Below are positions 12,345-26,132 of a stretch of DNA of 64,000 bases, piece by piece. The stretch is from a virus, in the IMG/VR virus record IMGVR_UViG_3300043015_002491, positions 1-64,000 of that record; one strand, given 5' to 3'. The translations under genes were made by a program, and so were the position numbers. The notes beneath the pieces were generated by a model, which worked only from the letters and a program-made list of their open reading frames with translations, had not been told where the DNA came from and made no database searches. Within the stretch, counting starts at the first letter, position 1, and every line of letters begins with the position of its first letter.

Positions 12345-13033
12345 TACATACCTCTGGTTTTGTAAGAAGAATAAAACTCGTCTTCTAATTCACCATTGTT
12401 ATAGGTATTGATGATTTCTCTATTTTCTTTTCTGTGTTTCCCCTTAGCTTTACGTCTTTCAACTTTTCTCCACCATTTAGGTACAGACCAACCACCATAC
12501 GGATTATCGCTGATATTATAAAGCTTAGACTTTAACTCAGCTTCTTCTTGGTAAAGTATTTCATCATGTTCTTTATAGTGTGTTATATAAGAACGTGATT
12601 TCTTCATCACCAATTTCCAAGGTTCAATATCAACCTTGTATTTAGGTCTCCACCAGTAATTTTTATCACTAGTATCTAACCTAAAATATTTTTGAAGACA
12701 TGACGGATAACTTAAATAAGTAGATTCATCAATTTTCTTAAAGTAAGGTTTAATGTCTTGCCACTTATTATTGTTTCTCCATTCCTTAACCCTAAAGTCC
12801 TTTCTCTTAGACCAAACCTCAACACCTAGATTATCAATAATCCATTGTAAGATTTCACCATCTGGACTCTTAGCGATGTCTTCTCTTAATACCCACTCAC
12901 CATTATAGCCGTGGGGGATAGGCTTCTCCAATTCAATCCAAGCTTGGTTGCGTTTGTGTTGCCAGTTTTTGTCAAGCTCTTTCTTAGTTCTAATTAGAGC
13001 TTTTTCCTTTTCAAAATACTTATTTCTCTTCAT
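12332..13033 (-). CDS. hypothetical basic Trp-rich protein
   Basis: 233 aa; PKWWRKVERRKAK segment; ends YWWW. Confidence 0.6.
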   Translation of the reverse strand: MKRNKYFEKEKALIRTKKELDKNWQHKRNQAWIELEKPIPHGYNGEWVLREDIAKSPDGEILQWIIDNLGVEVWSKRKDFRVKEWRNNNKWQDIKPYFKKIDESTYLSYPSCLQKYFRLDTSDKNYWWRPKYKVDIEPWKLVMKKSRSYITHYKEHDEILYQEEAELKSKLYNISDNPYGGWSVPKWWRKVERRKAKGKHRKENREIINTYNNGELEDEFYSSYKTRGMYWWW

Positions 13034-13054
13034 TTAACATAGGATTTAATACAC

Positions 13055-13108
13055 TTAGTTGTGTATTCGCCCTATGCCTCCTGTAGAAGTACTATTTAAT
13101 TTAATCAT
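13055..13108 (-). CDS. putative uORF MIKLNSTSTGGIGRIHN overlapping a hairpin in front of 12332..13033
   Basis: 17-codon ORF; CATAGGG..AATACAC pairs with GTGTATT..TCCTATG just before the downstream ATG. Confidence 0.4.
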   Translation of the reverse strand: MIKLNSTSTGGIGRIHN

Positions 13109-13452
13109 ATTATAATTTTTATTATTGCATTTCTTCTTTTGCAATATCTATTTCATCCTTATCTTCACCAATAAAATTATCATGTAAATAATCGATACAC
13201 ATTTTAGCCGATTTCTTAGCTTCAAAATATTTACTATCTTCAGCTAATTGGATTAGTGTACCTAACGCATTACAAATGGTTGTCATATCATCTAACACCA
13301 TTTTCTTAGCTGTACTCTCATCCTTGATTGTTTCAACAAGGTTTTCTGGTTTGGAAATTCTGATTGGGTCTTCCCTTTCAGAATCCATATCTATCATAAC
13401 TATATTTTTCATGTAACAAATATAAGACTAATTAATTAAAAAATCAAGTTAT

Positions 13453-14439
13453 TTATAATTTATTTAATTGGTCCATCTTTTTAGCTTGGTTCTTTTTCTT
13501 TAAATTTTTAATTTTATCATAATGACCAGCTTTTTTGTTTTGTTTAAGAGCTTCAGCGGCTTCTGAACCAGCTGGTTGACCGCCATGTAACAATAAAGCG
13601 AAATTATCATCACTACCCCATGCTAATGAATCATCAACATCTATCTTAAGACCTAACTCTTTAGCTTTTTCTGGTGTGTAAACAACAACACTATATCTAA
13701 GGTTATTATCCATGATAGTTTTTGCGTTGTTCTTATCCATTGATGCTATAAGTTTAAAATTTGATGGTACAGAACTTCTATTAGCTAACCAAAACTTTAA
13801 TGAAGTTGTATACGCATAAAATAAAGTATTAGGGAAAGCTTTAGCTGTTTCCATCCAAGCTTTAAAATAATCAGAAGAAAAGAAATCACCAGCCTCATGT
13901 ACCCTAATCAATTTTTCACCTTCTAAACCATGATATTTAATTGATTTAATTAATAAATCTTTCATACCTTCCATACCATTTTCTTTTCTGGCACCATTTA
14001 ATAAATCTAAATTTTTATGAGCATTTTTATAGGCTGCTGGGTATTGGGATTGTGCTCTTGCTGCATAACATCTAAATTCAGCTTCTTTACCTTGTAATAA
14101 TGAAGAACCATCAGAAAATTTCTTACCACCTGGTTCGGCAGCAAAAGTTTTACATGTAGTTGCTAATGGACATGTAAAACCAGCTGGTAGTGAAAAATAT
14201 GGCCAATCTAATTTAGAATTACCACCTTCACTAAATGTTAACACACAATCTTTATTCGCATCAATAGGCTCACTTATTACTTCCGAATCATCAGAACCAT
14301 CTATATGACCAAATACGTCAAAATCTTCTTCTTCAAACATATATTGTCTAATGAAATGTGTCCCACAAGAACCACCCATGACTTCATTAATTAAGTGGTT
14401 TTTCATTAAACCTTCCCTAAGCAAATTCTTAATACTCAT
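13453..14439 (-). CDS. Gp88-like (radical-SAM-like) phage protein
   Basis: FSLPAGFTCPLATTC...CYA, RVHEAGDFF and FYAYT. Confidence 0.65.
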   Translation of the reverse strand: MSIKNLLREGLMKNHLINEVMGGSCGTHFIRQYMFEEEDFDVFGHIDGSDDSEVISEPIDANKDCVLTFSEGGNSKLDWPYFSLPAGFTCPLATTCKTFAAEPGGKKFSDGSSLLQGKEAEFRCYAARAQSQYPAAYKNAHKNLDLLNGARKENGMEGMKDLLIKSIKYHGLEGEKLIRVHEAGDFFSSDYFKAWMETAKAFPNTLFYAYTTSLKFWLANRSSVPSNFKLIASMDKNNAKTIMDNNLRYSVVVYTPEKAKELGLKIDVDDSLAWGSDDNFALLLHGGQPAGSEAAEALKQNKKAGHYDKIKNLKKKNQAKKMDQLNKL

Positions 14440-14526
14440 ATTTTTTTTCTTTTACTATAAATATAAAAAAATATATAAAAAGTTTGGGTATTAAAATATA
14501 AGACGTATTGAGAATATAAAAATAAG

Positions 14527-14598
14527 TTCCCCCAGGGAATTTCGAAATCCCGACCCCTCCGTTAAAAGCGGAGTGCTCTGCCTCTGAGCTATGAGGGA
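14527..14598 (-). tRNA. tRNA-Lys(TTT)
   Basis: cloverleaf; anticodon arm CTCCG-CTTTTAA-CGGAG. Confidence 0.92.
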
Positions 14599-14626
14599 AT
14601 AAAATGCCTCTCTCGGCATCCGTCAC

Positions 14627-14730
14627 AACATTTTGTATTCTGTTAACCTATCTGAACTCTAAGACTCATTCGTCTTTTACAGACATGGACATCCATTATC
14701 AAGTTCGGGTCCTAACGGTAAAATCTTGTT
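14627..14730 (-). ncRNA. candidate 6S-like RNA
   Basis: rod-like pairing GTTA/TAAC, ACC/GGT, GAACT/AGTTC around an open centre; between tRNA genes. Confidence 0.4.
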
Positions 14731-14743
14731 AAAAACCAGTATG

Positions 14744-14824
14744 AGCGGGTAGTCAGAATCGAACTGACATCGCTGCATTGGAAGTGCAGTATAATACGCT
14801 TTCGCTCCGTTATACGATACCCGC
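14744..14824 (-). tRNA. tRNA-Gly(TCC) with expanded D-loop
   Basis: loop CTTCCAA; D-loop contains extra AGCGAAAGCG. Confidence 0.85.
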
Positions 14825-14829
14825 AATTG

Positions 14830-14903
14830 AGCCCACCACCAGAATCGAACTGGTATCTACGGTTTACAAGACCGTTGTAATAAAGCCGTTATACTAGGTG
14901 GGC
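14830..14903 (-). tRNA. tRNA-Thr(TGT)
   Basis: ACGGT-CTTGTAA-ACCGT. Confidence 0.9.
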
Positions 14904-14910
14904 TTATTAG

Positions 14911-14995
14911 TGGGAGCCGCTGGAATCGAACCAGCACCTATACAGGGCTACAGTTTTACAGACTGCCTCAACCAACCAATAGTTGACTCACTCCC
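14911..14995 (-). tRNA. tRNA-Tyr(GTA), divergent copy
   Basis: loop CTGTAAA; long variable arm; imperfect base of acceptor stem. Confidence 0.75.
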
Positions 14996-15046
14996 AAATT
15001 GACTTTTTACCTTATCCAAACGTAAGCTTAAAGTCTAACAGCGTAG

Positions 15047-15129
15047 TGGGCCTGGTAGGATTCGAACCTACACGCTCCGAAGAGACCAGATTTACAGTCT
15101 GGCGAGCCAACCAATTGCTCAACAGACCC
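15047..15129 (-). tRNA. tRNA-Tyr(GTA)
   Basis: CCAGA-CTGTAAA-TCTGG; long variable arm. Confidence 0.92.
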
Positions 15130-15134
15130 AAATA

Positions 15135-15191
15135 CAGAATGCGCTTTTATATTTACCCAAAAAATAGTTTAAATTTTGCTGAATGCATTCT
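15135..15191 (-). ncRNA. CAGCAA-family small RNA with Pro(TGG) anticodon stem-loop
   Basis: AGAATGC-ATTCAGCAA...TATTT-TTTGGGT-AAATA...GCATTCTG. Confidence 0.7.
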
Positions 15192-15195
15192 TTAG

Positions 15196-15269
15196 CTACC
15201 CAGGGAGGCCTCGAACCTCCAAATTCCACATTCAAAGTGTGGTGACTTTGCCAATTTGTCTACTGGGCA
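15196..15269 (-). tRNA. tRNA-Gln(TTG)
   Basis: CCACA-CTTTGAA-TGTGG. Confidence 0.88.
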
Positions 15270-15323
15270 ATAATGATTTTTTGTATCCTTTACCAAGAAA
15301 GCTTAAAATCTAACAGCATTATG

Positions 15324-15419
15324 TCTGGGGAATGGGATTCGAACCCATGGCAGACACTACCCTTGTGCCCGCACCACGTCCCAAGCGTGGCCACTTCAAC
15401 CTTACTCGTGCATCCCCAG
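15324..15419 (-). tRNA. tRNA-Pro(TGG) with 8-bp variable arm
   Basis: CCACG-CTTGGGA-CGTGG; variable stem GCGGGCAC/GTGTCTGC. Confidence 0.8.
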
Positions 15420-15430
15420 TTTAATTATAG

Positions 15431-15505
15431 TCGGATAGACTGGACTCGAACCAGCACAATGTCCTCATCCCAAATGAGGCGAGATACCAATTTCTCTACT
15501 ACCCG
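15431..15505 (-). tRNA. tRNA-Pro(TGG)
   Basis: CTCA-TTTGGGA-TGAG. Confidence 0.9.
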
Positions 15506-15568
15506 ATTAATTCTCAATACGTCAATGAACATTCTGATTATTTAATCTCTATCAGAAAAAAAGAGCAT

Positions 15569-15602
15569 AAAAAAACCCGTCTCAGTTTTCCTGGACGGGT
15601 TT
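15569..15602 (-). terminator. attenuator terminator of tRNA operon 1
   Basis: AAACCCGTCCAG-GAAAA-CTGAGACGGG-T7; 5' arm complementary to GGCGGGTTT (15664-15672) in the leader ORF. Confidence 0.85.
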
Positions 15603-15626
15603 CTATATCTTTTGAACCTTATGTGA

Positions 15627-15734
15627 TTACAATGTAGTTAAATCACTTTCAGTTAAACATAGCAAACCCGCCACACTCGGCTTCCCGCCTTGCGTATACT
15701 GTTTCGGTTGATATGTCGTAACTGTTAAGTTCAT
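15627..15734 (-). CDS. leader peptide 1 (MNLTVTTYQPKQYTQGGKPSVAGLLCLTESDLTTL)
   Basis: 35 aa ORF between promoter and terminator; codons 6-19 all T/Y/Q/P/K/G. Confidence 0.85.
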   Translation of the reverse strand: MNLTVTTYQPKQYTQGGKPSVAGLLCLTESDLTTL

Positions 15735-15784
15735 TTTTTCTATTTTTTAAATTATTAAATTTGTTCGTTTAATTTATATATATG

Positions 15785-15816
15785 CAAATATATGGTAAAA
15801 GTTTCAATTTGTCAAG
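15785..15816 (-). promoter_or_regulatory. Bacteroidota-type sigma-A promoter, tRNA operon 1
   Basis: CTTGAC...GAAACTTT...TATATTTG (-33/-7 TAnnTTTG); near-identical at four loci. Confidence 0.8.
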
Positions 15817-15870
15817 TATTTTTCAAAATATTTTTAAACTTTTTTATATGTGCTTGATAATCAAGTATTT

Positions 15871-16269
15871 TTATAAATTATTTTTATCCCTAGCTTTTAT
15901 CTCATCCCTAATCTTAGCTGCATCTTCATATCTTTCTTCTTCAATAGCGATTGCAAGTCTATCTTCTAGAGATATTTTCTTTTTAGTTTTAGGTGTGAAG
16001 CCAGTATCAAGTGGTGAATGAATCATTTCAACCTTAACTATTGAACCATGTTCTGTTTCCCAAACACTTCTTTTGAATTTATAACCATTCTCTTCAAATT
16101 CAGTAACTTCATTAGGTTCACCTAATTCACTTTCATATGGATTAGTAGTGTCATCATTTAATTCACTAAAGTCATTTAACTTATTTATTAAATCTCTCAT
16201 ACCTTTTAAGGGGTCATTTGATTTCTTCCCAAAGAAGTCATCAAATAAATCATCAAAATCATTAAACAT
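15871..16269 (-). CDS. UVR (UvrB/C) domain protein
   Basis: C-terminal LAIAIEEERYEDAAKIRDEI; likely start MFNDFDD. Confidence 0.7.
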   Translation of the reverse strand: MFNDFDDLFDDFFGKKSNDPLKGMRDLINKLNDFSELNDDTTNPYESELGEPNEVTEFEENGYKFKRSVWETEHGSIVKVEMIHSPLDTGFTPKTKKKISLEDRLAIAIEEERYEDAAKIRDEIKARDKNNL

Positions 16270-16952
16270 AATATTATTTTTTATTTTTGTTATACGATTA
16301 ATTGTACAAAATAGATACCATTTATTTTTTTCTGCCAATATGTCTGTATCTATATCTAATAGATGTCAAAAGATACCTAAATGGATTAATTTTAAGTAAA
16401 TAGAAATATAGTCCAAATAATGAAACTGATAATAGGTAAAAAATAGAAGTGGTAATTACATAGGAATCTCCTGTCGCTTTTAAAACCATGTAAAAAAGGG
16501 CATCGTACCCTAATGGGTTCATAAACATCGCCATCATTAGAACGATTGTGGCTATTTTCTTTCTGTTTACTACCCTCATCATCCATATTGTTTAAACTTT
16601 GTGTTACCATATTATTAAAATAAGCTAGTTTGATTTGGAAGCATGTTCTTCCAATATTCAAGCTGCTCATCAAGCTTCTTAATCTTTTTGTTAATAGAAG
16701 CCCTTTCTCTTACTAATTGCTTTCTAGCTTCAGTAAGTTCTCTTAATTTATTGTTAATATCGTCTTGACTGATTGTATTATTCTCAGCTAAGATGTTTAA
16801 CTTTTCTTTAATCTTCTTTTTCATATTATATAAATATGAGCATCTTGGTTTAAATACAAAAAAGTTAAGGCCAGTGGCTACCATTCTAGATGGAGTTCGG
16901 AGATTACTATTTCACACTTAGGACCCTAAGACCTTAACCTTTATATTATTAG

Positions 16953-17022
16953 TAGTACTGCTGGGATTCGAACCCAGGTCTCCCCCTCAACGGGAGCGTC
17001 TTGACCGCTACACCACAGTACG
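16953..17022 (-). tRNA. atypical tRNA-like gene (loop GTTGAGG, nominal TGA)
   Basis: T arm CTGGG-TTCGAAT-CCCAG and acceptor GTACTG/CAGTAC; non-canonical anticodon loop. Confidence 0.55.
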
Positions 17023-17107
17023 ACTCTAAGGGAGCGACCCCTAGAGTAAGGAATGTTAGATACTAAGCTTTGGGAGCGACCCATCGCATCATACCCACTA
17101 CCCCTAG

Positions 17108-17232
17108 TCGGAAGGGCTAGATTCGAACTAGCATCAAGTGGTTCCCATAGCTTTTAAATTGCTGAACTTAACCTTTTAAAACAGATTAATCTTTTTGCAT
17201 TACCACCGCCTCACCAGTTGGGCTACCTTCCG
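17108..17232 (-). ncRNA. tRNA body with anticodon loop replaced by ~60-nt CAGCAA module
   Basis: acceptor CGGAAGG/CCTTCCG, D and T arms intact; GTGGT/ACCAC stem encloses TTAATCTG-TTTTAAA-AGGTTAAGTTCAGCAA. Confidence 0.7.
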
Positions 17233-17277
17233 TTTAAAAGGAAGTGTTGTTAAAACGTTTTACCGCACCATTAATAT

Positions 17278-17340
17278 CAGAGTGACTTTTACGTAAATCA
17301 AATTAAAAGTTTGAGCGTTAAAAATTGCTGAAATCACTCT
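17278..17340 (-). ncRNA. CAGCAA-family small RNA with Lys(TTT) anticodon stem-loop
   Basis: AGAGTGA-TTTCAGCAA...TCAAA-CTTTTAA-TTTGA...TCACTCTG. Confidence 0.7.
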
Positions 17341-17364
17341 TTATATTCCTAATATTTTTGATAT

Positions 17365-17482
17365 CAGAATGGGACTTAATACGTGCTCTACCAATTGAGC
17401 TACTTGCCCAGAAGGACAAGGCTGGACTCGAACCAACAACAACGAGCTTAACAGGCTAAAATTTAATTGCTGTAGCCATTCT
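17365..17482 (-). ncRNA. CAGCAA-family RNA with circularly permuted tRNA(Asn)-like module (YrlA-like)
   Basis: AGAATGG-CTACAGCAA, AGC-CTGTTAA-GCT, T arm, acceptor closed by loop (CTTGTCC-TTCT-GGGCAAG), D arm, CCATTCTG. Confidence 0.8.
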
Positions 17483-17746
17483 TTATATATCTTATCTAAT
17501 CTCTCAAAGAACTATGGTACAAACTTACAACTTATTTTTTAATTATGCAAGTTTTTTTTTTATTTTTTTTTAAGATTTTTATTACCCTTTGTATGGATAG
17601 GGTCAAAAGGGCAATGCCTACAACCACTCCCACAACATATAGACCTACGTTTTAAGTAGGATTCTGTATATATTATTTTGCCATTCTCTAAATAATAATC
17701 TTTACCTTCTTCAAATCTAAAATCACTCATATTAATTAATATTTAG

Positions 17747-17819
17747 TGGAGCCACCGATACTCGAAATCGGAACTGCTGGTTGCAAACCAACTATTATCA
17801 CCACTTTAACTATGGCCCC
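17747..17819 (-). tRNA. tRNA-Ala(TGC)
   Basis: loop TTTGCAA; GGGGCCA/TGGCTCC with G3:U70. Confidence 0.88.
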
Positions 17820-17953
17820 AGTTTTGTTAGATTTCGTACCGTTATCACACTTCAGTACAAGTCACTTTCAATTTATCTAACACACTTCCTATGCTGGCTA
17901 ACTGGGTTATTTAAGCGAAATACGCCCCCAGCGCCTTTATGTGACACCGTTAG

Positions 17954-18030
17954 CGGTCTAGGAGGGTTTCGAACCCTCGTTTTAGAGCAGAGACAGTGCA
18001 ATTCCCCCCACCATGGGGGCTTACTAGACC
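17954..18030 (-). tRNA. tRNA-Asp(GTC), divergent copy
   Basis: loop CTGTCTC; acceptor GGTCTAG/CTAGACC; unusual D arm. Confidence 0.65.
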
Positions 18031-18085
18031 GTGCACTAACTAAGGGGGATGATTAAGCCCCAATCAATTGTCGTAGTTAGTAAAG

Positions 18086-18158
18086 CGGACGTGACGGGAG
18101 TTGAACCCGCTCCGAACTGCGTGACAGGCAGACATCTTAACCGTTTGACCTCACGTCC
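18086..18158 (-). tRNA. tRNA-Asp(GTC)
   Basis: CTGC-CTGTCAC-GCAG. Confidence 0.85.
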
Positions 18159-18232
18159 GTAATTGATAGTCTTTCCTATCAGTCATACTCAAAACTCCCA
18201 CTGGTCGTAACTCCAGTTATAGAGAGCGTTTG

Positions 18233-18317
18233 TAATGCGGACGGGGTTCGAACCCGCAATACCCAAGAGGGTCCAGATTGAAAGTCTGGTCGCTTAAACC
18301 AATTTGCATACCGCATC
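18233..18317 (-). tRNA. tRNA-Glu(TTC) with long variable arm
   Basis: CCAGA-CTTTCAA-TCTGG; variable arm ACCC-TCTT-GGGT. Confidence 0.8.
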
Positions 18318-18322
18318 ATATG

Positions 18323-18396
18323 TAACCCAGACGGGGCTCGAACCCGCAATCTCCACAGTGAAAGTGTGACGACTTAACCAGTTTGTCCACTGGGTC
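18323..18396 (-). tRNA. tRNA-Glu(TTC)
   Basis: CACA-CTTTCAC-TGTG. Confidence 0.88.
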
Positions 18397-18431
18397 AAAT
18401 TAAACCAAAATGTCAAAGAACTATTCTTTTG

Positions 18432-18503
18432 TGCGACCCCTCAGATTCGAACTGAGACCTCCTGGGCTTCAACCAGGCGAGCTACCATTAACTCCAGAGC
18501 CAC
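18432..18503 (-). tRNA. tRNA-Phe(GAA)
   Basis: CCTGG-TTGAAGC-CCAGG. Confidence 0.85.
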
Positions 18504-18513
18504 ATATGGGCAT

Positions 18514-18544
18514 AAAAAAAGGCCCTCCGTTTCGGGAGAGCCTT
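18514..18544 (-). terminator. attenuator terminator of tRNA operon 2
   Basis: AAGGCTCTCCCG-AAA-CGGAGGGCC-T7; 5' arm complementary to GGGAGAGTC (18594-18602) in the leader ORF. Confidence 0.85.
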
Positions 18545-18574
18545 CTTATCTAAGCTTTTATGTTTTTATAACAT

Positions 18575-18667
18575 TTAACTTATGACAATACTTGACTCTC
18601 CCAGGCTAAAATCGGCCTCAGCAAACGCTTCAAAAGCAAAATCAAATATGTTGTTAAATGTTCTCAT
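18575..18667 (-). CDS. leader peptide 2 (MRTFNNIFDFAFEAFAEADFSLGESSIVIS)
   Basis: 30 aa ORF; codons 8-20 all F/D/A/E. Confidence 0.85.
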   Translation of the reverse strand: MRTFNNIFDFAFEAFAEADFSLGESSIVIS

Positions 18668-18716
18668 TATTTCTATTTTTTAAATATTAAATTTTTTTGT
18701 TTTAATTATATATATG

Positions 18717-18748
18717 CAAATATAGGTCTAAAGTTTCAAAAAAGCAAG
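18717..18748 (-). promoter_or_regulatory. sigma-A promoter, tRNA operon 2
   Basis: CTTGC...GAAACTTT...TATATTTG. Confidence 0.8.
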
Positions 18749-18793
18749 TATTTTTACAAATTATTTTTAAAATTTTTTTTAATTACTTCATTA

Positions 18794-19738
18794 TCAACGA
18801 TTTAATTTTTTTACTCCTCTACCAAATAATTCAGATTCTTTTTCTCTTCTAGATTTTAGACCTGGATGTTTCTCAAATGATTTTTCACTAGTAGTCTTTA
18901 TTTTTTCTTTAGCCTTTTCATATTCACCCCTTTTAACTAATTGTATAAAGTCAGAGTTTCTAAAACCACTTCTACCCATATTAAAAGCCATAGATACCAT
19001 AGCATCATACATATCTTGGTTGATTGTATATTTAATACCTTTCTTGTCCCAACGTGATAAAACATCATTAATAACCTTTTCAGCATAAGCTAAATCATTT
19101 TTAAATAACTCTTCAGCAGTTTCTCTAGAAATTACTTGACCTAATTTAAACTTAGACCTTCTAATTTTTTCAGCATGCCCCCAACCAATTGTGATTGCAC
19201 CATCACCAAGTTTATAAGCTTTAAGTACTGGTTCACCCTTATGTTTTATACTACCTTCTTCATACTTAAGGTGATTTATTAAATTTTGTGATGCTTTAGT
19301 AGGTTTAGCTACTCTATTGTCTAATTCTTTATTAACTTGATTTTCTTTTTCACTACTAACTCTTTTAACTGGCGTTGAAGTTTCTATTGATGTTAATATA
19401 TCTTGTTTTATATCTGGCGCATTAGCACTTAATAACGAACTAACCGTGTTTAATGATAATAAACCCATTAAACTAATACTCACATATTTTACCATTTTTT
19501 TTCTAAACCCAGATGGGATATTTTTGGTCTTATTTAATAAAACTTCTAAGAATCTTTCACCTTGTGTTGGTGAATGAATGGTTGACATGGTTTTTTCAAG
19601 TTGATTTTTTGTTAAATCCCATTCAAATGTTCTAGACTCTTCTTCGTTTTCACATATTAGTATTAAATCATTTAAACTATTTTCAAATAACCTAGTTTCT
19701 AATTCTTCTCTTAACAAATTTTCTATTAGATGTTTCAT
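18794..19738 (-). CDS. phage lysozyme (GH24) with N-terminal extension
   Basis: EEG..AYK.GDGAITIGWGH, DAMVSMAFNMG and GLKSRREKESELF; likely start MKHLIENLLRE. Confidence 0.88.
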   Translation of the reverse strand: MKHLIENLLREELETRLFENSLNDLILICENEEESRTFEWDLTKNQLEKTMSTIHSPTQGERFLEVLLNKTKNIPSGFRKKMVKYVSISLMGLLSLNTVSSLLSANAPDIKQDILTSIETSTPVKRVSSEKENQVNKELDNRVAKPTKASQNLINHLKYEEGSIKHKGEPVLKAYKLGDGAITIGWGHAEKIRRSKFKLGQVISRETAEELFKNDLAYAEKVINDVLSRWDKKGIKYTINQDMYDAMVSMAFNMGRSGFRNSDFIQLVKRGEYEKAKEKIKTTSEKSFEKHPGLKSRREKESELFGRGVKKLNR

Positions 19739-19792
19739 ATTATATAAATATAACCCAACCATTCAAAAATTGTATAGTACCTTAATTTTTAG

Positions 19793-19874
19793 TGACCCTG
19801 GTGAGACTCGAACTCACACGCCTTTCGGCAGAGGCTTCTTAGACCCCCCTGTATACCAATTCCAGCACAGAGCC
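19793..19874 (-). tRNA. tRNA-Leu(AAG)
   Basis: GGGGT-CTAAGAA-GCCTC; Leu-type D loop and variable arm. Confidence 0.8.
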
Positions 19875-19879
19875 ATAAA

Positions 19880-19963
19880 CAGGTTGAGTTTTACGGGATT
19901 GAACCGCTTCGTTTTGTTTTGCAGACAAAATTTTAACCATTTAAAGTTTGCTGTACTCAACCT
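19880..19963 (-). ncRNA. CAGCAA-family RNA with Cys(GCA) anticodon arm and T-arm remnant
   Basis: AGGTTGAG-TACAGCAA...TTTGT-CTGCAAA-ACAAA..GCGG-TTCAATC-CCGT..CTCAACCTG. Confidence 0.75.
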
Positions 19964-19967
19964 TTAG

Positions 19968-20056
19968 TACGGAGGGCGGGATTCGAACCCGCAGATGTAT
20001 CTTACGTGTGCCGTGGGGTCTAAGCCCACCGACTTTACCAGTTTGTCCACCTCCGC
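19968..20056 (-). tRNA. tRNA-Leu(TAG)
   Basis: GTGGG-CTTAGAC-CCCAC; long variable arm. Confidence 0.82.
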
Positions 20057-20061
20057 ATTTG

Positions 20062-20144
20062 TACTCCCGCCCAGACTCGAACTGGGATTTACTTCACGTC
20101 TCTTCCATGTAAAAGAAGGATGTTACCAATTACACCACAGGAGC
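20062..20144 (-). tRNA. tRNA-Val(TAC), variant with expanded variable region
   Basis: loop TTTACAT. Confidence 0.7.
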
Positions 20145-20150
20145 ATTTTG

Positions 20151-20240
20151 TAGCGGGAGCTGGATTCGAACCAGCGAAATCAGATTCACTCTGCCTCTGG
20201 GTTATGAGCCCAGCGAGCCGACCAACTGCTCTACCCCGCA
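20151..20240 (-). tRNA. tRNA-Met(CAT), initiator-like, long variable arm
   Basis: CTGGG-CTCATAA-CCCAG (three G-C pairs); 1:72 mismatch. Confidence 0.8.
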
Positions 20241-20247
20241 ATATTAG

Positions 20248-20438
20248 TTGCCACGGTAGGAATCGAACCTACTGCCTCTCCCCTATGAACGGGAGCGAGC
20301 TTTGAACAAATTTAACAAACTCCAAACTATTCATGTTTAACCAGAAGTCCCCTTAACATGTGTCGGTTATTCCATATTAAACAATCCAAGCCCTTTTAAA
20401 ATTAAACCTTGGCATGTTCTCCAATGCTCTACGTGACT
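20248..20438 (-). tRNA. tRNA-like gene (CAT) with >100-nt insertion in the D-loop
   Basis: acceptor GTCACG/CGTGGC; D stem GAGC/GCTC separated by a long insert; intact T arm. Confidence 0.6.
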
Positions 20439-20449
20439 AAGTTTAGCCG

Positions 20450-20535
20450 TAGCCAGAGTGGGACTCGAACCCACACGCCCCTTTCGGAGCAAGGGATTTT
20501 AAGTCCCTCGTGTCTACCAATTCCACCATCTGGCC
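20450..20535 (-). tRNA. tRNA-Leu(TAA)
   Basis: AGGGA-CTTAAAA-TCCCT. Confidence 0.92.
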
Positions 20536-20559
20536 ATATTTTCAAAGAACACTTTGTTG

Positions 20560-20635
20560 TTGGGATAGAGGGATTCGAACCCCCGACCTTCTCGGTGTAA
20601 ACGAGACGCTACTGAACCAACTGAGCTATATCCCA
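20560..20635 (-). tRNA. tRNA-Val(TAC)
   Basis: CTCG-TTTACAC-CGAG. Confidence 0.9.
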
Positions 20636-21398
20636 ATGTGCTAGGTTTTACCCTAGCTTTATAAATCTTTCATTTTTGATGGCTTTACTTATCCATCTTG
20701 CTAATTCAGAACCTCTGATTTTAGCATCAAATGTAGTTGTACCTAAATCTGAAGATAACTTTAGCGTTTGTATTTCTTCTCTTTCAAACGAATCAGTTTC
20801 AATTACTTCTTCAACTGTTGCTATTGGGAATTGATATAATTCGTCCATAATCACAACATTGTAATATAAATTACCAGCAATATAGTGACTAAATGTAGCC
20901 ATATTCTTAGACTTCATTAAGTCTTTTTTTATTTCTATTTCATTAAACATAACCATTCTCTTTTTTCCATTTTTCATGCATCATATTAATCGTATGGTAA
21001 GGACTTCCTTTACCTTCAATAATTTCTTCGAACCCATTTTCTTTAGTAATAAGAGATTCTCCATATTCAATAGTACCCTTAAATTTACTACCATAACTAC
21101 TAGATTGAAGTGTTTTTGTTGCTGGGTCTACATCACCCCAAGAACTTCTCCATCCTCTAGGTTTAAGATACTCAATAAAATATTGTTTACCTGTTTCTGG
21201 ATAAAATACCACTTCTCTTCCAGTTTCATCTCTGTTCACTAAGAACTCTTGCCTACTAATTGTTTTCATTTTTTCTTTTTTAAAAACCTTGTTATTATCA
21301 TTAACCAATTAACATTATTTTTTTGTCCCTTAGTTAATCTTTCTCTTGTTCCTTCTAAATTACCTCTTAAAATTTCTTTTACCATTTTATTTTTTTAG

Positions 21399-21469
21399 AG
21401 GCGGGAGAGGGAATCGAACCCCCGTAAAAGCTTTTGCAGAGCTCCACCTAACCACTCGGTCATCCCGCC
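21399..21469 (-). tRNA. tRNA-Cys(GCA)
   Basis: AGCT-CTGCAAA-AGCT; U73. Confidence 0.88.
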
Positions 21470-21485
21470 ATTAATTTTTAAACAT

Positions 21486-21519
21486 AAAAAAAGTCCGACT
21501 CGTTTTACTGAATCGGACT
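21486..21519 (-). terminator. attenuator terminator of tRNA operon 3
   Basis: AGTCCGATTC-AGTAAAAC-GAGTCGGAC-T7; 5' arm complementary to GGTCGGACT (21560-21568). Confidence 0.85.
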
Positions 21520-21545
21520 CTCTGTTTATCTTATTTTTATTCAAG

Positions 21546-21626
21546 TTAAGACACAACACAGTCCGACCAGTTTACCACTAGTAAACATAAGTTAAGGACT
21601 AATAATATGTTGTTTCTTGTAATCAT
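21546..21626 (-). CDS. leader peptide 3 (MITRNNILLVLNLCLLVVNWSDCVVS)
   Basis: 26 aa ORF; 10 of codons 8-18 are L/V/C. Confidence 0.82.
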   Translation of the reverse strand: MITRNNILLVLNLCLLVVNWSDCVVS

Positions 21627-21656
21627 TGAATTTTTCTTTGTTTTTAAATATATATG

Positions 21657-21688
21657 CAAAGTTACTATAAAAGTTTCAATTTGTCAAG
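21657..21688 (-). promoter_or_regulatory. sigma-A promoter, tRNA operon 3
   Basis: CTTGAC...GAAACTTT...TAACTTTG. Confidence 0.8.
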
Positions 21689-21723
21689 TATTTTTATAAA
21701 AAAGTTTTATTTTTTTTTGTAAT

Positions 21724-22431
21724 TTAAGAATACCTCATCTTAATTATTCTAGCTATTATGTTGAATAGCTGTTCTTTAGACCTACCTTCACGTCTTTTTA
21801 AAAAGTCATTAATTAAGTCAGAAATTCTCTTTTCTTTTTCTCTTCCCATCTGATATTTGTATGATATTACATCGAAAAGACTCATAAAATAATATCCATT
21901 AAGTTCGGTAGCCCTATCAAGTATTGTATCACTATCATCCACCTTAGTATCTGTATAATCACCGCCAGCTCTTTGTGGAGCCCATTCGTCAAACGCTTCA
22001 ATGTCCATTTGAGTTAAACCTAATTCATTTGGTCTGTAAATACCCTTCTCATAATTAGAGATAAATTTATCCATATCAACCTTACCGTTTAGGTTTGATT
22101 TTAAAATTTCCCAATTTTCTTTATTAGGTACTACCACATCTAAGTCACCTGGCTCTAATGGTATTTCTTTACCACCAAATTGTTCAGAAATCTTATTAAT
22201 AAATTCTGGTAAACCATCATACATATAAAGTCTTGCAGAACCAGATATAAAGTATTTTTTATCAGATGGTTTTATACCAAATGCTTTAAATAATACGTTA
22301 TCAGATTCTTTAATTAACCTCATTAATTTATTATTAGCCTCATCAAGTATCATCGTTTCTTGTAATGCTTTTTCCAAATTAGTCCAAGCATCTCTAATCA
22401 TCATTTCTTCATATAAGTTAGATAACTTCAT
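21724..22431 (-). CDS. putative nucleotidyltransferase-fold protein
   Basis: ISGSARL...GDLDVVV (GS...DxD). Confidence 0.5.
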   Translation of the reverse strand: MKLSNLYEEMMIRDAWTNLEKALQETMILDEANNKLMRLIKESDNVLFKAFGIKPSDKKYFISGSARLYMYDGLPEFINKISEQFGGKEIPLEPGDLDVVVPNKENWEILKSNLNGKVDMDKFISNYEKGIYRPNELGLTQMDIEAFDEWAPQRAGGDYTDTKVDDSDTILDRATELNGYYFMSLFDVISYKYQMGREKEKRISDLINDFLKRREGRSKEQLFNIIARIIKMRYS

Positions 22432-22820
22432 ATTCTTTAAGTTTATTTACAACTTCTGTATTATATTGTTTTTCAATTGTAAGTTTTTTCAATGAAAATA
22501 ACATAAGGAATGGGTTTGGTCCCTTGATAAATAAAAAATTATAAGCAGACCATTCACTAGTCATATAATACTTCTCATTTTCCATAACTTCAATTAATGG
22601 GTACCCATGTTTGTCAATATATTTCCAATCATAAGTGTGACATATTTTACTCACTTTCTTTAAAAATAATAACAACTCTATCACTCTCATAATTACCAAT
22701 AAGCTTAACATTGAAATAACTACCATAACTATAAATATTAACGTTTATTCAAATATAAGAATTATTTCCCAAAATACCAAATTAATCTTTACATTTAACA
22801 CTATAAACCTATATTATGGT

Positions 22821-23144
22821 ATGGGATTTATTTATTTAATTACTGATTGGTCTTCGAACCCGACACGTTATAAGGTGGGTATCACTAAGAATAATGTTGA
22901 AAGTAGATTAAAGCAGTTGCAGACAGGTTCAAGTGGTGAATTAGTGTTACTTAAAACATACGAATCAGAACACTATCGTAAAATAGAAGGTATTCTCCAT
23001 CGTGGTTATAAAACCTACTCTACCGATGGTGGTAAAGAATGGTTTGAATTACCAGATGAAACAGCCCTAAACTTTTTAAATGAATGTGAGCAGATTGATA
23101 ATAATATCAAAATGCTCAAGGATAGTGGTAACCCTTTTATTTAA
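22821..23144 (+). CDS. GIY-YIG / T5orf172-like nuclease
   Basis: GFIYLI...YKVGIT...RLKQLQTG...EWF. Confidence 0.85.
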   Translation: MGFIYLITDWSSNPTRYKVGITKNNVESRLKQLQTGSSGELVLLKTYESEHYRKIEGILHRGYKTYSTDGGKEWFELPDETALNFLNECEQIDNNIKMLKDSGNPFI

Positions 23145-24351
23145 TAACTACCCCTTTTTGTTTTTCATAAACATAAAACTTCTTTCTAATTTCAATAAGA
23201 AGTTTATTTACCAAACCACTTTCAACACTCTTAGGTAAATCAGATTCATCAAAGATTGTATCCATGTTCTGGATTTCTTTATCCGCCATTTCAATTAGTG
23301 ATTCTAAATCAACTTCTCCACGTCTGATTGAAAGTAATTCTTGAGCATCTGGTCTACGGATAATAATACCCTTACCTTCACCAATCTCCTTAGCCATTCT
23401 GATAAGTCTCATGCAATGCATCATATTCTTACCATCGATTTGTTGACCATGTTTTTGCGTATCAACATATCTTGCTTCGTTTCTATTTTCAACCCATTCT
23501 TGGTATTCCTTATAATCCTTACAGTGTTGTGAATAACCATCCTTATTATACGTAAAGATAGCAATTGATTTTTCCTCCTTGGGGATACTTGACAATCTCA
23601 ATTGATTGGATATTCCAGCATTGTTGGATTCCCCAACCTTAACAAGGCCCTTATACCCAAGACCGAAAGTAGTACCTTCTTCATTCCCAAGGAATCTTTT
23701 AACTCTATTCTTAGACTCTTCATCAAAGTCAGATGAGAAACAATTAGCAGCTACACCATCATAATAAAGAGCATACATATCTCTAGCATTGGGAATATTA
23801 ACCACACCGCAGAATTTTTGTGCATCAGAAGGGTAACCCTCTCTTTCAAACCAATCTTTAATTGGAGTTGACTTCTCACCTTCAATTACATAACAGAAGT
23901 CAAGTAATTCTTTTCTAGTTACTTTTTCCTTTTCCCAGTTTTGTTTCTTGTTAAGACCCTTCGCCTTCTTGATTTGTTGTCTAGCATATCCACCAAATGA
24001 GTTTTTACACCCCTTTGTGATAAACTTGTTCTTCTCGTTGATAATAATATCAAAAAGTGGATTCTTAGAGACAATACAATCTTCTGGTGAATTAAGCAAT
24101 TCAAGTACCGTTGGGTTGTTGCTTTCAAGTAGTTCAAGGAAACGCCTTACTTCCCAACCAACATAATCTTTATTAATATTTATTTGTTCAACATACCCAG
24201 TACCTAGAATAAAGTCTTCTGGAAGGATATATACAAACTTCTTATCAATATCACTTGTCGGTGTTTGAGTTCCATAGGCTTGTGACCCTACAATGGTTTC
24301 AAAAAGGATGAGACCATTCTCTACTAAAAATTCGTGTGTAATCTGTTTCAT
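23137..24351 (-). CDS. Pol-beta superfamily nucleotidyltransferase (RlaP/NrdC.11-like)
   Basis: GSQAYGTQTPTSDIDKK, NPTVLELL and KNMMHCMRL. Confidence 0.82.
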   Translation of the reverse strand: MKQITHEFLVENGLILFETIVGSQAYGTQTPTSDIDKKFVYILPEDFILGTGYVEQININKDYVGWEVRRFLELLESNNPTVLELLNSPEDCIVSKNPLFDIIINEKNKFITKGCKNSFGGYARQQIKKAKGLNKKQNWEKEKVTRKELLDFCYVIEGEKSTPIKDWFEREGYPSDAQKFCGVVNIPNARDMYALYYDGVAANCFSSDFDEESKNRVKRFLGNEEGTTFGLGYKGLVKVGESNNAGISNQLRLSSIPKEEKSIAIFTYNKDGYSQHCKDYKEYQEWVENRNEARYVDTQKHGQQIDGKNMMHCMRLIRMAKEIGEGKGIIIRRPDAQELLSIRRGEVDLESLIEMADKEIQNMDTIFDESDLPKSVESGLVNKLLIEIRKKFYVYEKQKGVVIK

Positions 24352-24936
24352 TTTTTTATTTTATGTAAGATACAAAAAAGCTAGGTAAATACCAAATAAA
24401 ATCGGCATTAATAATGCAATACTCACTGCTAAGATTATTTTGATGAAATCAAATATCTTTAGCTTTTTTGTTCTCATTAGTCTTCAATTAACTTTTCCAC
24501 TTTTTCACAAGGTACACAGGTTAAACCTAATCCAGTTGTTGACACAGAACCAGTCTTTCTTGAAGCCACGGCTCCAAAACATAATCCAGTTCTCTTATCT
24601 TTAAAATATACAACATCGGTTCCATCGAAATCAACGTTGTCCGAAGTATTCACTGAACAACTTGTCAGTGCAATAACTACTACTAAAATAAATCCTATCT
24701 TTTTCATAAAGCAAATATAGTGAATTAATTATTACTTTGCAAGTTTTTCTTCTAAATATTCGTATAAGTTATCTCTAAAGACTGTATCATTACATCCCCA
24801 ACTAATTGCTATACCTTGTACATATTCTGGTAAAGCATCCCATATGGTTTGTAATTCCTCGTTGGAGTATTCATATCCAGTTACTTCTAATACAACATCG
24901 TGTATTGCTGCGAAATCTTCTTCTTCAAGTGTTACT

Positions 24937-26131: not shown

Positions 26132-26132
26132 A

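What the first reader, a model, noticed from the sequence alone, without database searches (positions are those of the whole stretch)
15569..15816. Attenuator 1: T/Y/Q/P/K/G sensor for the Pro-Pro-Gln-Tyr-Tyr-Thr-Gly-Lys array
Leader codons 6-19 (ACG ACA TAT CAA CCG AAA CAG TAT ACG CAA GGC GGG AAG CCG) are 14 consecutive codons for exactly the six amino acids of the array, often sampling both synonymous codons. GGCGGGTTT (15664-15672) can pair with the terminator arm AAACCCGTC.
Basis: partly seen in the sequence, partly recalled or inferred. Interest (0 to 1): 0.85.

Follow-up and report, generated by a model that had tools for sequence, protein, structure and literature searches.

The report
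Codon-matched attenuator gating phage tRNAs
An uncultured giant phage places a block of eight tRNA genes behind a tiny test gene written in exactly the six amino acids those tRNAs carry and wired to a switchable transcription stop, so it probably makes these tRNAs only when ribosomes read those codons slowly.

Summary
On the minus strand, 15815..15569 holds a promoter, a 35-codon ORF, and a hairpin with a T7 run. Eight tRNA genes follow: Pro, Pro, Gln, Tyr, Tyr, Thr, Gly, Lys.

- **Codon match:** Codons 6-19 all encode those six amino acids. This is the longest such run among 555 short ORFs on the contig.
- **Alternative pairing:** A 9-base segment just after the run pairs with the terminator's 5' arm.
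- **Sister units:** The window has three sister units covering the other amino acids; together the four arrays cover all 20.
- **Relatives:** Two related IMG/VR phages have the same design, one of them with its tRNAs split into different blocks. The true leader-to-array assignment ranks first of 24, 6 and 24 permutations.
- **Covariation:** In 11 U1-type homologues the segment and both terminator arms change together.
- **Controls:** Cellular genomes and three unrelated tRNA-rich phages lack the design.

The best reading is a leader-peptide attenuator in which slow decoding lets transcription run into the tRNA genes, giving feedback control of tRNA supply.

Weak points: the U1 switch must be kinetic, because the terminator wins at equilibrium, and the RNA evidence is thin. 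Seven literature searches found no published account. This scan has already noted the same design on other phage DNA.

The parts
15785..15815 (-). Promoter of unit U1. It has TTGACA at 15815..15810 and TATATT at 15792..15787 (11 of 12 to the sigma-70 consensus). It also reads as TTG, 20 nt, then a TAnnTTTG-type box at 15792..15785.
   Evidence: A 23-base word around it occurs 3 times in the window (15818, 21690, 38608), against 0.01 expected. Each copy lies upstream of a tRNA array.
15627..15734 (-). Leader ORF of 35 codons plus the stop. It has no Shine-Dalgarno sequence but an A-rich upstream context like the phage's other genes.
   Evidence: All 11 distinct U1-type homologues keep an ORF of 31-36 codons whose stop lies 22-26 nt before the terminator arm.
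15678..15719 (-). Sensor run: codons 6-19, 14 consecutive codons for T, Y, Q, P, K and G. Codon 4 is also Thr.
   Evidence: Of codons 2-19, 14 of 18 are readable by the array's own anticodons under strict wobble rules. All 6 anticodon species are sampled. Seven codons of the run each make up at most 9% of their amino acid's codons in the phage's long ORFs.
15664..15672 (-). Segment 2, the 5' strand of the antiterminator (codons 21-24). It is complementary to the terminator's 5' arm.
15569..15602 (-). Intrinsic terminator: 5' arm 15602..15591, loop 15590..15586, 3' arm 15585..15573, T7 run 15575..15569.
   Evidence: duplex energy of the two arms -16.7 kcal/mol.
14526..15505 (-). The regulated array: tRNA-Pro(UGG) twice, Gln(UUG), Tyr(GUA) twice, Thr(UGU), Gly(UCC) and Lys(UUU).
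   Evidence: ARAGORN; Rfam; Gly at 14819..14750.
21486..21690 (-). Sister unit U2: promoter, leader ORF 21626..21546 rich in L, V and C, and terminator 21523..21486. tRNA-Cys starts 16 nt after the T-run, followed by Val, Leu, Met, Val, Leu, Leu.
18514..18750 (-). Sister unit U4: promoter variant, leader ORF 18667..18575 rich in F, D, A and E, and terminator 18545..18514. tRNA-Phe starts 10 nt after the T-run, followed by Glu, Glu, Asp, Ala.
38389..38608 (-). Sister unit U3: promoter, leader ORF 38539..38456 and terminator 38422..38389. Of the leader's 26 residues, 24 fall in the array set H, W, T, S, I, M, N, R. A 55-codon ORF follows, then the ten-tRNA array 38202..36789.
   Evidence: P 2.4e-9; 10 of 10 anticodon species sampled.

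Best explanation
This is a ribosome-mediated (leader-peptide) transcription attenuator that gates a phage tRNA operon.

Transcription starts at the promoter near 15815..15785, and a ribosome translates the 35-codon leader. If codons 4-19 are decoded slowly, because aminoacyl-tRNAs for Thr, Tyr, Gln, Pro, Lys or Gly are scarce, the ribosome lags upstream of segment 2 (15672..15664). Segment 2 then pairs with the terminator's 5' arm as that arm emerges. The terminator cannot form, and RNA polymerase runs on into the eight tRNA genes.

If decoding is fast, the ribosome covers segment 2, or stands between it and the arm, while the terminator is being made. The hairpin forms and transcription stops at the T7 run.

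Because the products are the very tRNAs that read the sensor codons, the circuit is a negative feedback on tRNA supply. Three sister units do the same for the other amino acids.

Shown by computation: the anatomy, the codon-to-tRNA match, its recurrence and co-variation, and the competing pairing with its covariation. Inferred: that the ORF is translated, the direction of the response, its kinetics, and the physiological trigger.
For: **1. Match of leader to array.** Between codon 2 and segment 2, 15 of 18 sensor residues belong to the array's six amino acids, and all 6 are represented. The run of 14 is the longest among 555 short ORFs. Under strict wobble rules, 14 of 18 codons are readable by the array's own anticodons, and 6 of 6 anticodon species are sampled.

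**2. Specificity within the genome.** In the 4x4 leader-by-array matrix of the window, the true assignment ranks 1 of 24, scoring 3.03 against 2.09 for the next best. U1 scores 0.83 against its own array and 0.11, 0.00 and 0.28 against the other three.

**3. Independent replication.**
- G002, a complete 368.5-kb phage with 65 tRNA matches, has four such units; the true assignment ranks 1 of 24.
- G001 splits its tRNAs into different blocks, {P,N,D,A,Y}, {S,F,M,R,W} and {G,I,Q,R,V,M}, and its three leaders follow that split; rank 1 of 6.

**4. Unbiased sweep.** The detector looked for a terminator, an ORF of 15-45 codons ending at most 60 nt upstream, and a tRNA at most 400 nt downstream. It ignored composition. 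Run over all loci held, it gave 86 units with 47 distinct leaders, and 46 of the 47 belong to this family. Grouped only by the first tRNA:

| First tRNA | Leaders | Composition of codons 8-19 |
|---|---|---|
| Phe | 17 | F, A, D, E |
| Cys | 14 | L, V, C |
| Pro | 10 | Q, K, G, P, Y, T |

**5. Antiterminator.** The best partner of the terminator's 5' arm lies within codons 19-31, just after the sensor, in all 11 units. It beats codon-shuffled leaders in most: shuffles at or below the observed energy were 12, 5, 18, 1, 0, 3, 51, 2, 461, 6 and 4 of 500.

Across 11 U1-type homologues, segment 2 and both arms change in step in three sequence classes. Own leader-arm pairs average -13.6 kcal/mol against -10.4 for swapped pairs, and 2 of 20000 permutations reach the observed total.

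**6. Ribosome-position model on the nascent RNA, before the 3' arm is made.** For U1, the probability of the 2:3 pairing is at least 0.95 with the A-site on codons 1-17 and about 0 on codons 18-28. In the units modelled, the boundary lies close to where the run of array-matching codons ends.

**7. The arrays need read-through.** The first tRNA starts 10 nt (U4) and 16 nt (U2) after the T-run, which leaves no room for a separate promoter.

**8. Controls.**
- The U1 leader pattern hits 12 places in 596 Gb of cellular genomes; 0 of 12 has a terminator or tRNAs downstream. In viral contigs, 13 of 14 do.
- The same detector finds 0, 1 (uninformative) and 0 distinct units in the tRNA regions of three unrelated phages with 24, 26 and 21 tRNAs.

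**9. The missing Shine-Dalgarno sequence is normal here.** Of 86 long ORFs, 3 have an SD-like core, against 6% at random positions. The leaders share the A-rich upstream context of real genes.
Against: - **No experiment.** The only RNA data are assembled contigs. One contig (X19 and X20, a single sample) spans 15667..15494 across the terminator. Another (X17) spans 15838..15689 across the promoter. Either could be DNA carry-over.
- **Equilibrium favours the terminator.** For U1 the terminator is favoured wherever the ribosome sits (P 0.68-0.94). Only 3 of 11 units (U4, U3, G002_L016) switch at equilibrium. The decision must therefore be kinetic, which I could not model.
- **Simple occlusion is incomplete for this unit.** In U1-type units the stop codon lies 22-36 nt beyond segment 2. 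A ribosome waiting at the stop no longer covers segment 2, and the model gives P(2:3) = 0.90 there.
- **The match is imperfect.** Codons 2, 3 and 5 (N, L, V) are outside the set. GGC is not read by the only Gly tRNA found (UCC) under strict wobble.
- **Extra tRNAs are not mirrored.** Extra tRNAs in the F/D/A/E-type (U4-type) arrays of relatives (His, Pro, Asn, Ser, Cys, Met, suppressors) do not appear in those leaders.
- **Some units are weaker.** U2 has only 10 of 18 sensor residues in its array set and is not among the top short ORFs for that set. G002_L020 has no significant segment 2 (461 of 500 shuffles). Three U1-type homologues have weak pairings (28-49 of 300 shuffles).
- **Limited independence.** Homologous units are not independent. 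The independent evidence amounts to four unit types plus the three differently partitioned units of G001.
- **Circularity in part.** The U1-type loci were found with a pattern taken from the leader, so their leader similarity is by construction. Only their terminators and arrays are independent observations.
Confidence: 0.8

Rival explanations
1. The element is a real attenuator, but what it reads is general translational capacity or the timing of infection, not the six tRNA species specifically. With no ribosomes, or with slow ones of any cause, transcription reads through. Once translation is brisk, it stops. The codon match would then be a by-product of shared ancestry between leaders and arrays, or only a fine-tuning.
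For: Without a ribosome, the nascent-RNA model forms the antiterminator with P of at least 0.88 in 10 of 11 units, so the default state is 'on'. The leaders share a similar N-terminal start, which implies duplication.
Against: A general sensor has no need for leader composition to follow array content. Yet it does in 46 of 47 distinct leaders, and in G001, where the blocks are partitioned differently. All anticodon species of the arrays are sampled in U1 (6 of 6) and U3 (10 of 10).
Confidence: 0.08
2. Translation of the leader controls something other than termination. It might control processing or stability of the tRNA precursor, or the terminated leader RNA or the peptide might act in trans. 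The hairpin would then be a constitutive, leaky terminator.
For: At equilibrium, the U1 terminator forms regardless of ribosome position. Released attenuator RNAs and leader peptides with trans functions are described for trpL in Sinorhizobium (abstracts listed).
Against: Segment 2 is complementary to the terminator's 5' arm, co-varies with it, and is placed exactly after the sensor codons. This is what a termination switch needs and what a processing signal does not. The peptide sequence is not conserved, only its amino-acid set.
Confidence: 0.06
3. The leader is not translated. Its triplets are read directly by tRNAs or by a protein, as in a T-box-like or protein-mediated riboswitch.
For: No direct evidence of translation exists. 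There is no Shine-Dalgarno sequence.
Against: Rfam at gathering thresholds finds only tRNAs in 13000..39000, with no T-box or other cis-regulatory family. Every unit has an ATG, an open frame of 24-37 codons and a stop at a fixed distance from the terminator; for U1-type units this distance is 22-26 nt in 11 of 11. The phage's real genes also lack a Shine-Dalgarno sequence.
Confidence: 0.03
4. The arrangement is a chance combination of an ordinary small gene and an ordinary terminator that insulates the upstream operon.
For: Over the whole 34-residue ORF the enrichment is only P 3.4e-3. Short ORFs abound in AT-rich DNA: there are 555 on the contig.
Against: The design recurs four times in the window, and the true leader-to-array assignment ranks 1 of 24. 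It is replicated in G001 and G002 and in dozens of IMG/VR contigs. It is absent from the controls.
Confidence: 0.01

Closest known systems
Leader-peptide (ribosome-mediated) transcription attenuators of amino-acid operons in Proteobacteria: trp, his, leu and pheA, and the multivalent thr and ilvGMEDA leaders (textbook knowledge, recalled; related abstracts listed)
   Same: Both have a short leader ORF enriched in regulatory codons, an intrinsic terminator, and an alternative pairing that overlaps the terminator's 5' arm and depends on where the ribosome stands. Like thr and ilv, this leader is multivalent: it senses several amino acids.
   Different: - The regulated genes are tRNAs, that is, the readers of the sensor codons, not biosynthetic enzymes. 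The loop closes on tRNA supply rather than on amino-acid supply.
- Six to eight amino acids are sensed per leader, and all 20 across the four units.
- The model finds no effective 1:2 protector pairing, so no translation predicts read-through rather than super-attenuation.
- The system is phage-borne, and its promoter and initiation context look Bacteroidota-like (recalled consensus).
The silent long tRNA array (trn operon) of Anabaena sp. PCC 7120, induced under translational stress (PMC8421152, term look-up only; PMC10272220, outline and abstract read)
   Same: An accessory block of many tRNA genes is kept off and is switched on when translation is impaired.
   Different: By the abstract of PMC10272220, control there is by a protein repressor, TrcR of the ribbon-helix-helix family. 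PMC8421152 contains no occurrence of 'attenuat', 'leader' or 'terminator'. That system is cellular rather than phage-borne, and no codon-matched leader is described.
T-box riboswitches of aminoacyl-tRNA synthetase and amino-acid genes in Firmicutes (recalled)
   Same: A terminator/antiterminator decision in a 5' leader reports on the state of a specific tRNA.
   Different: A T-box binds one uncharged tRNA directly through a specifier codon, without translation. Here there is an ORF with many codons, and no T-box match was found in Rfam.
Phage tRNA sets thought to replace host tRNAs lost to host shut-off or to anticodon nucleases
   Same: Both concern phage-borne tRNA arrays as a supply of translation capacity during infection.
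   Different: As far as I recall, those accounts concern which tRNAs are carried and how they escape cleavage. They do not describe a sensor that switches their transcription.

Membership tests
Leader-peptide transcription attenuators | A short ORF in the 5' leader, enriched in codons for the sensed amino acid(s) | tested here: met
   The ORF has 35 codons. Codons 6-19 all belong to the six-amino-acid set, and this is the longest such run among 555 short ORFs. In the sensor, 15 of 18 residues belong to the set.
Leader-peptide transcription attenuators | An intrinsic terminator (GC-rich hairpin plus U-tract) between the leader ORF and the regulated genes | tested here: met
   The hairpin 15602..15573 with its T7 run is present in the minimum-energy fold. 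All 11 units modelled have one.
Leader-peptide transcription attenuators | A mutually exclusive antiterminator pairing that uses the terminator's 5' arm | tested here: met
   The pairing is 9 bp, -15.0 kcal/mol, matched by 12 of 500 shuffles. It co-varies across 11 homologues. Own pairs beat swapped pairs, with 2 of 20000 permutations reaching the observed total.
Leader-peptide transcription attenuators | The ribosome's position on the regulatory codons decides which pairing forms | tested here: inconclusive
   In the nascent-RNA model, 2:3 forms with the A-site on codons 1-17 and is blocked on codons 18-28. In the full-length equilibrium model, the terminator wins at every position for U1. 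A ribosome at the stop codon leaves segment 2 free. Kinetics could not be modelled.
Leader-peptide transcription attenuators | A 1:2 protector hairpin that makes termination the default when the leader is not translated (trp type) | tested here: not met
   Without a ribosome, the nascent RNA forms the antiterminator with P 0.99 for U1 and at least 0.88 in 10 of 11 units. This is a feature of the trp subtype, not of attenuation as such.
Leader-peptide transcription attenuators | Read-through responds to the supply of charged tRNA in vivo or in vitro | not testable with these tools
   The phage is uncultured. Only assembled RNA contigs were available.
T-box riboswitch | A match to the T-box leader model (stem I with specifier loop, T-box sequence) | tested here: not met
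   Rfam at gathering thresholds over 13000..39000 returned 26 tRNA matches and nothing else.
TrcR-type repression of accessory tRNA arrays (Anabaena) | A ribbon-helix-helix repressor and its operator upstream of the array | not tested
   No search for a TrcR homologue or operator was made. The comparison rests on the abstract of PMC10272220.

The most novel reading that the evidence does not exclude
The four units together form a complete tRNA homeostat that resolves individual isoacceptors. Each block of phage tRNA genes is transcribed only when ribosomes report that its own codons are read slowly, and by default when translation has collapsed. This would let the phage sense and repair any hole in the host's tRNA pool, whether the cause is codon-usage mismatch, host shut-off, or defence nucleases that cut anticodon loops. 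It would also stop the phage spending transcription on tRNAs once the pool is restored. tRNA-depleting defences would then trigger their own countermeasure.
Probability: 0.35. Interest if true: 0.92.

Novelty: new variant of a known kind. Interest (0 to 1): 0.85.

Why it matters
Leader-peptide attenuation is a textbook mechanism. In the cases I know and could find, it controls enzymes that make or charge amino acids. Here the same logic appears to control the genes for the tRNAs themselves, in a virus, with leaders that each sample six to eight amino acids and that together cover all twenty.

If true, this has three consequences:
- Phage tRNA sets are regulated on demand rather than simply expressed.
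- It offers a concrete, testable link between tRNA depletion (by host shut-off or by anticodon-nuclease defences) and phage counter-measures.
- It provides natural, compact sensors of decoding speed for chosen codons that could serve as reporters.

Tried and rejected
**Cultured relatives.** A blastn search of 14400..16400 against 50,697 phage records gave only tRNA-sized matches (at most 5% of the query) and no relative. A tblastn search with a 722-aa protein gave only weak hits (27% identity over 28%) to PA5oct-like Pseudomonas jumbo phages. No cultured relative was found.

**Flanking proteins as probes.** The search for related loci with the 235-aa and 328-aa flanking proteins found no relatives.

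**Chance hits.** L005, L006 and L007 from the promoter-word scan were chance hits without tRNAs. L026 from the U1 pattern was also a chance hit.

**U4-type pattern.** One search reports 81 stretches and lists 80 locus ids; my script examined those 80:
- 30 hold a family unit with a detected terminator;
- 1 has the leader and tRNA-Phe but no terminator by my detector;
- 13 have the motif in unrelated short ORFs;
- 36 have it in no ORF of 15-60 codons.

**Detector miss.** My generic detector missed U1 of the window itself, because its loop-size limit was exceeded.

**Alignment.** The MAFFT alignment of the 11 U1-type units (A1) did not keep the terminators in register. I therefore did not use the count of structure pairs and compared duplexes sequence by sequence instead.

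**E. coli tRNA-Phe.** I half-remembered that E. coli tRNA-Phe genes have an attenuator-like leader. The pheV region of K-12 shows a promoter running straight into the tRNA with no leader ORF, so I dropped the idea. pheU was not examined.

**Literature.** Seven searches found no account of leader-peptide attenuators in front of tRNA genes. The library lacks most subscription journals, and supplements were closed.

**Sequencing runs.** The DNA is held by estuary and seawater metagenome runs. The RNA runs gave only contigs, which cannot show transcript ends. The parts without cover say nothing.

**Host.** No host was established. The Bacteroidota suggestion rests on a recalled promoter consensus.
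Full report
**What is there.** The window is AT-rich phage DNA. The contig has 31% GC and is an IMG/VR record of 122,509 bases, estimated 35% complete. The window carries 31 tRNA genes and a tmRNA gene, all on the minus strand.

Read on that strand, the finding's interval contains, in order:
- a promoter: TTGACA at 15815..15810, then 17 nt, then TATATT at 15792..15787, matching 11 of 12 consensus positions;
- an ORF of 35 codons at 15734..15627;
- a GC-rich hairpin followed by seven T at 15602..15569;
- 63 nt further on, the first of eight tRNA genes.

ARAGORN calls Pro, Pro, Gln, Tyr, Tyr, Thr and Lys. Rfam adds a tRNA at 14819..14750 (30.7 bits). Its anticodon loop reads UCC (Gly), and its D-loop carries a 12-base insertion.

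**The observation.** Over the whole ORF the enrichment is modest (19 of 34, P 3.4e-3).

I defined the sensor objectively as codon 2 up to the start of the pairing segment. By that definition, 15 of 18 residues are in the set and all six amino acids occur. Under strict wobble rules, 14 of the 18 codons can be read by the array's own anticodons, and all six anticodon species are sampled. GGC is the exception within the run. Seven codons of the run each make up at most 9% of their amino acid's codons in the phage's long ORFs, so this is not ordinary coding sequence.

The stated pairing is real. The 9-base segment at 15672..15664 pairs with the terminator's 5' arm at 15602..15594, at -15.0 kcal/mol, and 12 of 500 codon-shuffled leaders do as well.

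**It is one of four.** A 23-base promoter word occurs three times in the window, against 0.01 expected. A variant heads a fourth unit. Each promoter is followed by a short ORF, a hairpin with a T-run, and a tRNA array.

| Unit | Leader ORF | Leader rich in | Array |
|---|---|---|---|
| U2 | 21626..21546 | L, V, C | Cys, Val, Leu, Met, Val, Leu, Leu |
| U4 | 18667..18575 | F, D, A, E | Phe, Glu, Glu, Asp, Ala |
| U3 | 38539..38456 | 24 of 26 residues in {H,W,T,S,I,M,N,R}, P 2.4e-9 | ten tRNAs for those amino acids |

The four arrays together cover all 20 amino acids. In the 4x4 matrix of leaders against arrays, the true assignment ranks first of 24 permutations, scoring 3.03 against 2.09 for the next best. 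In U4 and U2 the first tRNA starts 10 and 16 nt after the T-run. These arrays can therefore be expressed only by reading through the terminator. The tmRNA gene has its own promoter and no leader.

**Relatives.** A scan of IMG/VR with the promoter word found G001, a 149-kb record estimated 46% complete. A flanking protein led to G002, a 368,549-base record rated 100% complete with 65 tRNA matches.

G002 has four units of the same four types; the true assignment ranks 1 of 24. G001 is the more telling case. Its tRNAs are divided differently, into {P,N,D,A,Y}, {S,F,M,R,W} and {G,I,Q,R,V,M}, and its three leaders follow that division. The true assignment ranks 1 of 6, with own-array fractions of 0.70, 0.67 and 0.68.

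Patterns drawn from the U1 and U4 leaders found many more contigs. Of 14 U1-pattern loci, 13 hold a unit with a terminator and Pro/Gln/Tyr/Thr/Gly/Lys tRNAs. Of 80 U4-pattern loci examined, 30 hold a unit with Phe/Glu/Asp/Ala tRNAs.

A detector blind to composition was run on both strands of everything held. It looked for a terminator, an ORF of 15-45 codons ending at most 60 nt upstream, and a tRNA at most 400 nt downstream. It returned 86 units with 47 distinct leaders, and 46 of them belong to the family. Grouped only by their first tRNA, the 17 Phe-first leaders are F/A/D/E-rich, the 14 Cys-first are L/V/C-rich, and the 10 Pro-first are Q/K/G/P/Y/T-rich.

Among ten U1-type leaders, 14-18 of 18 sensor residues stay within the six-amino-acid set although their order differs. 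Selection is therefore on which codons are present, not on the peptide.

**Controls.** The U1 pattern hits 12 places in the 596-Gb collection of cellular genomes, and none has a terminator or tRNAs downstream. The same detector was run on the tRNA regions of Yersinia phage fHe-Yen9-04, Vibrio phage D482 and Bacillus phage Tsamsa, which carry 24, 26 and 21 tRNAs. It finds 0, 1 and 0 distinct units, and the single hit is uninformative because its 'array' spans all 20 amino acids.

The lack of a Shine-Dalgarno sequence before the leaders is normal for this phage. Of 86 long ORFs, 3 have an SD-like core, against 6% at random positions, and there is an A-rich patch at -14 to -11 that the leaders share.

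**The switch.** In all 11 units modelled, the minimum-energy fold contains the terminator. In all 11, the best partner of the terminator's 5' arm within the ORF lies in codons 19-31, directly after the sensor. Nine of the 11 beat codon shuffles at 18 of 500 or better, one is weak (51 of 500), and one fails (G002_L020, 461 of 500).

Across 11 distinct U1-type homologues, the segment sits at codons 20-25 in every case. The stop lies 22-26 nt before the arm in every case. The core of the segment and of both arms changes in step in three sequence classes (the letters are). Own leader-arm pairs average -13.6 kcal/mol against -10.4 for swapped pairs, and 2 of 20000 permutations reach the observed total. 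The own arm is the single best partner for only 4 of 11 leaders, because members of a class are interchangeable. The covariation is thus at class level and represents at least two compensatory events.

**Ribosome model.** With a 30-nt footprint moved codon by codon over the full-length RNA at equilibrium, the terminator wins almost everywhere. For U1 its probability is 0.68-0.94, and only U4, U3 and G002_L016 switch.

On the nascent RNA cut just before the 3' arm, the picture changes. The antiterminator forms with P of at least 0.95 when the A-site is on U1 codons 1-17, and it is abolished on codons 18-28. The boundary falls close to where the run of array-matching codons ends in the units modelled.

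Two things follow:
- Without any ribosome the antiterminator forms (P at least 0.88 in 10 of 11 units). The default is read-through, unlike the trp attenuator.
- In U1-type units the stop codon lies 22-36 nt past the segment. A ribosome parked at the stop no longer covers the segment (P 0.90). Fast translation must therefore act through timing, or through the ribosome standing between the two strands. This step is inferred.

**Mechanism proposed.** Slow decoding of the sensor codons keeps the ribosome upstream. The segment captures the terminator's 5' arm, and the polymerase continues into the tRNA genes. Fast decoding brings the ribosome onto or beyond the segment in time, the terminator folds, and transcription stops. 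Because the products read the sensor codons, the loop is negative feedback on tRNA supply. It is on by default at the start of infection or when translation fails.

**RNA evidence.** The DNA is held by estuary and seawater metagenome runs from many studies. Four RNA runs gave only contigs:
- one contig, in two runs of a single sample, spans 15667..15494 across the terminator into tRNA-Pro;
- another spans 15838..15689 across the promoter.

These are compatible with read-through transcripts and with transcription entering from upstream. DNA carry-over cannot be excluded.

**Comparison with what is known.** The anatomy is that of leader-peptide attenuators of amino-acid operons (recalled textbook knowledge). 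The differences are the regulated genes (tRNAs), the breadth of each sensor, the default state, and the phage setting.

Seven full-text searches found no account of such control of tRNA genes. The closest functional parallel I could read is the Anabaena trn operon, an accessory tRNA array induced by translational stress. It is controlled by the repressor TrcR (abstract). The earlier paper on it contains none of the words 'attenuat', 'leader' or 'terminator'. E. coli pheV has no leader. Rfam finds no T-box here.

**Earlier notes of this scan.** Notes on this genome describe the sister units and the four-unit system. Follow-up reports on two of them, and on several other phage genomes including a crAss-like one, reached the same reading. 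I treated these as leads and derived every result above from my own calls. One note supplied the pointer to the Anabaena work, which I then checked.

**Verdict.** I classify the element as a new variant of a known kind of regulator, with high interest. It still lacks any experimental test, and for this particular unit it lacks a worked-out kinetic account.

Noticed in passing
window 14750-14819 (-): A tRNA-Gly(UCC) with a 12-base insertion in the D-loop. Rfam finds it (30.7 bits), but ARAGORN does not call it.
   Followed up: partly
window 15323-15419, 20150-20240, 37883-37970 and others (-): Several tRNA genes are unusually long for their type (Pro 97 nt, Met 91 nt, Thr 88 nt, Ile 87 nt, Glu 86 nt by ARAGORN). 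They may carry insertions or introns.
   Followed up: no
window 38208-38375 (-); L008 (reverse strand) 1244-1411: A 55-codon Lys/Glu-rich ORF sits between the U3 terminator and its first tRNA. A 55-codon ORF of similar character occupies the same position in one G001 unit.
   Followed up: no
window 52701-53070 (-): A phage tmRNA gene with its own promoter directly upstream, preceded by a terminator and lacking a leader ORF. In a phage that appears to use ribosome stalling as a signal, a ribosome-rescue RNA is notable.
   Followed up: no
L011 (G001), L016:1528-1603 (G002); L060, L103, L112: Relatives carry tRNAs with anticodon CUA, which would act as amber suppressors (ARAGORN labels them Pyl). 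Inside some Phe/Glu/Asp/Ala arrays there are tRNAs with anticodon UCA, which would read opal (labelled SeC).
   Followed up: no
promoters of all units: window 15815-15785, 21687-21655, 38605-38575, 18750-17717; G001 and G002 loci: Every unit's promoter reads TTG, about 19-20 nt, then a TAnnTTTG-type box. The phage's genes lack Shine-Dalgarno sequences (3 of 86). Together with 31% GC, this suggests a Bacteroidota host. The promoter consensus is recalled, not tested.
   Followed up: partly
window 17022-17745 (-): This stretch, between tRNA-Ser and tRNA-Ala, has tRNA-like arms but no tRNA call.
   Followed up: no
   Followed up: no
window 15689-15838 (-): An RNA-library contig identical to the window spans the U1 promoter itself. 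Transcription from the upstream gene (15871..16338) may enter the leader, or the library may hold DNA.
   Followed up: no
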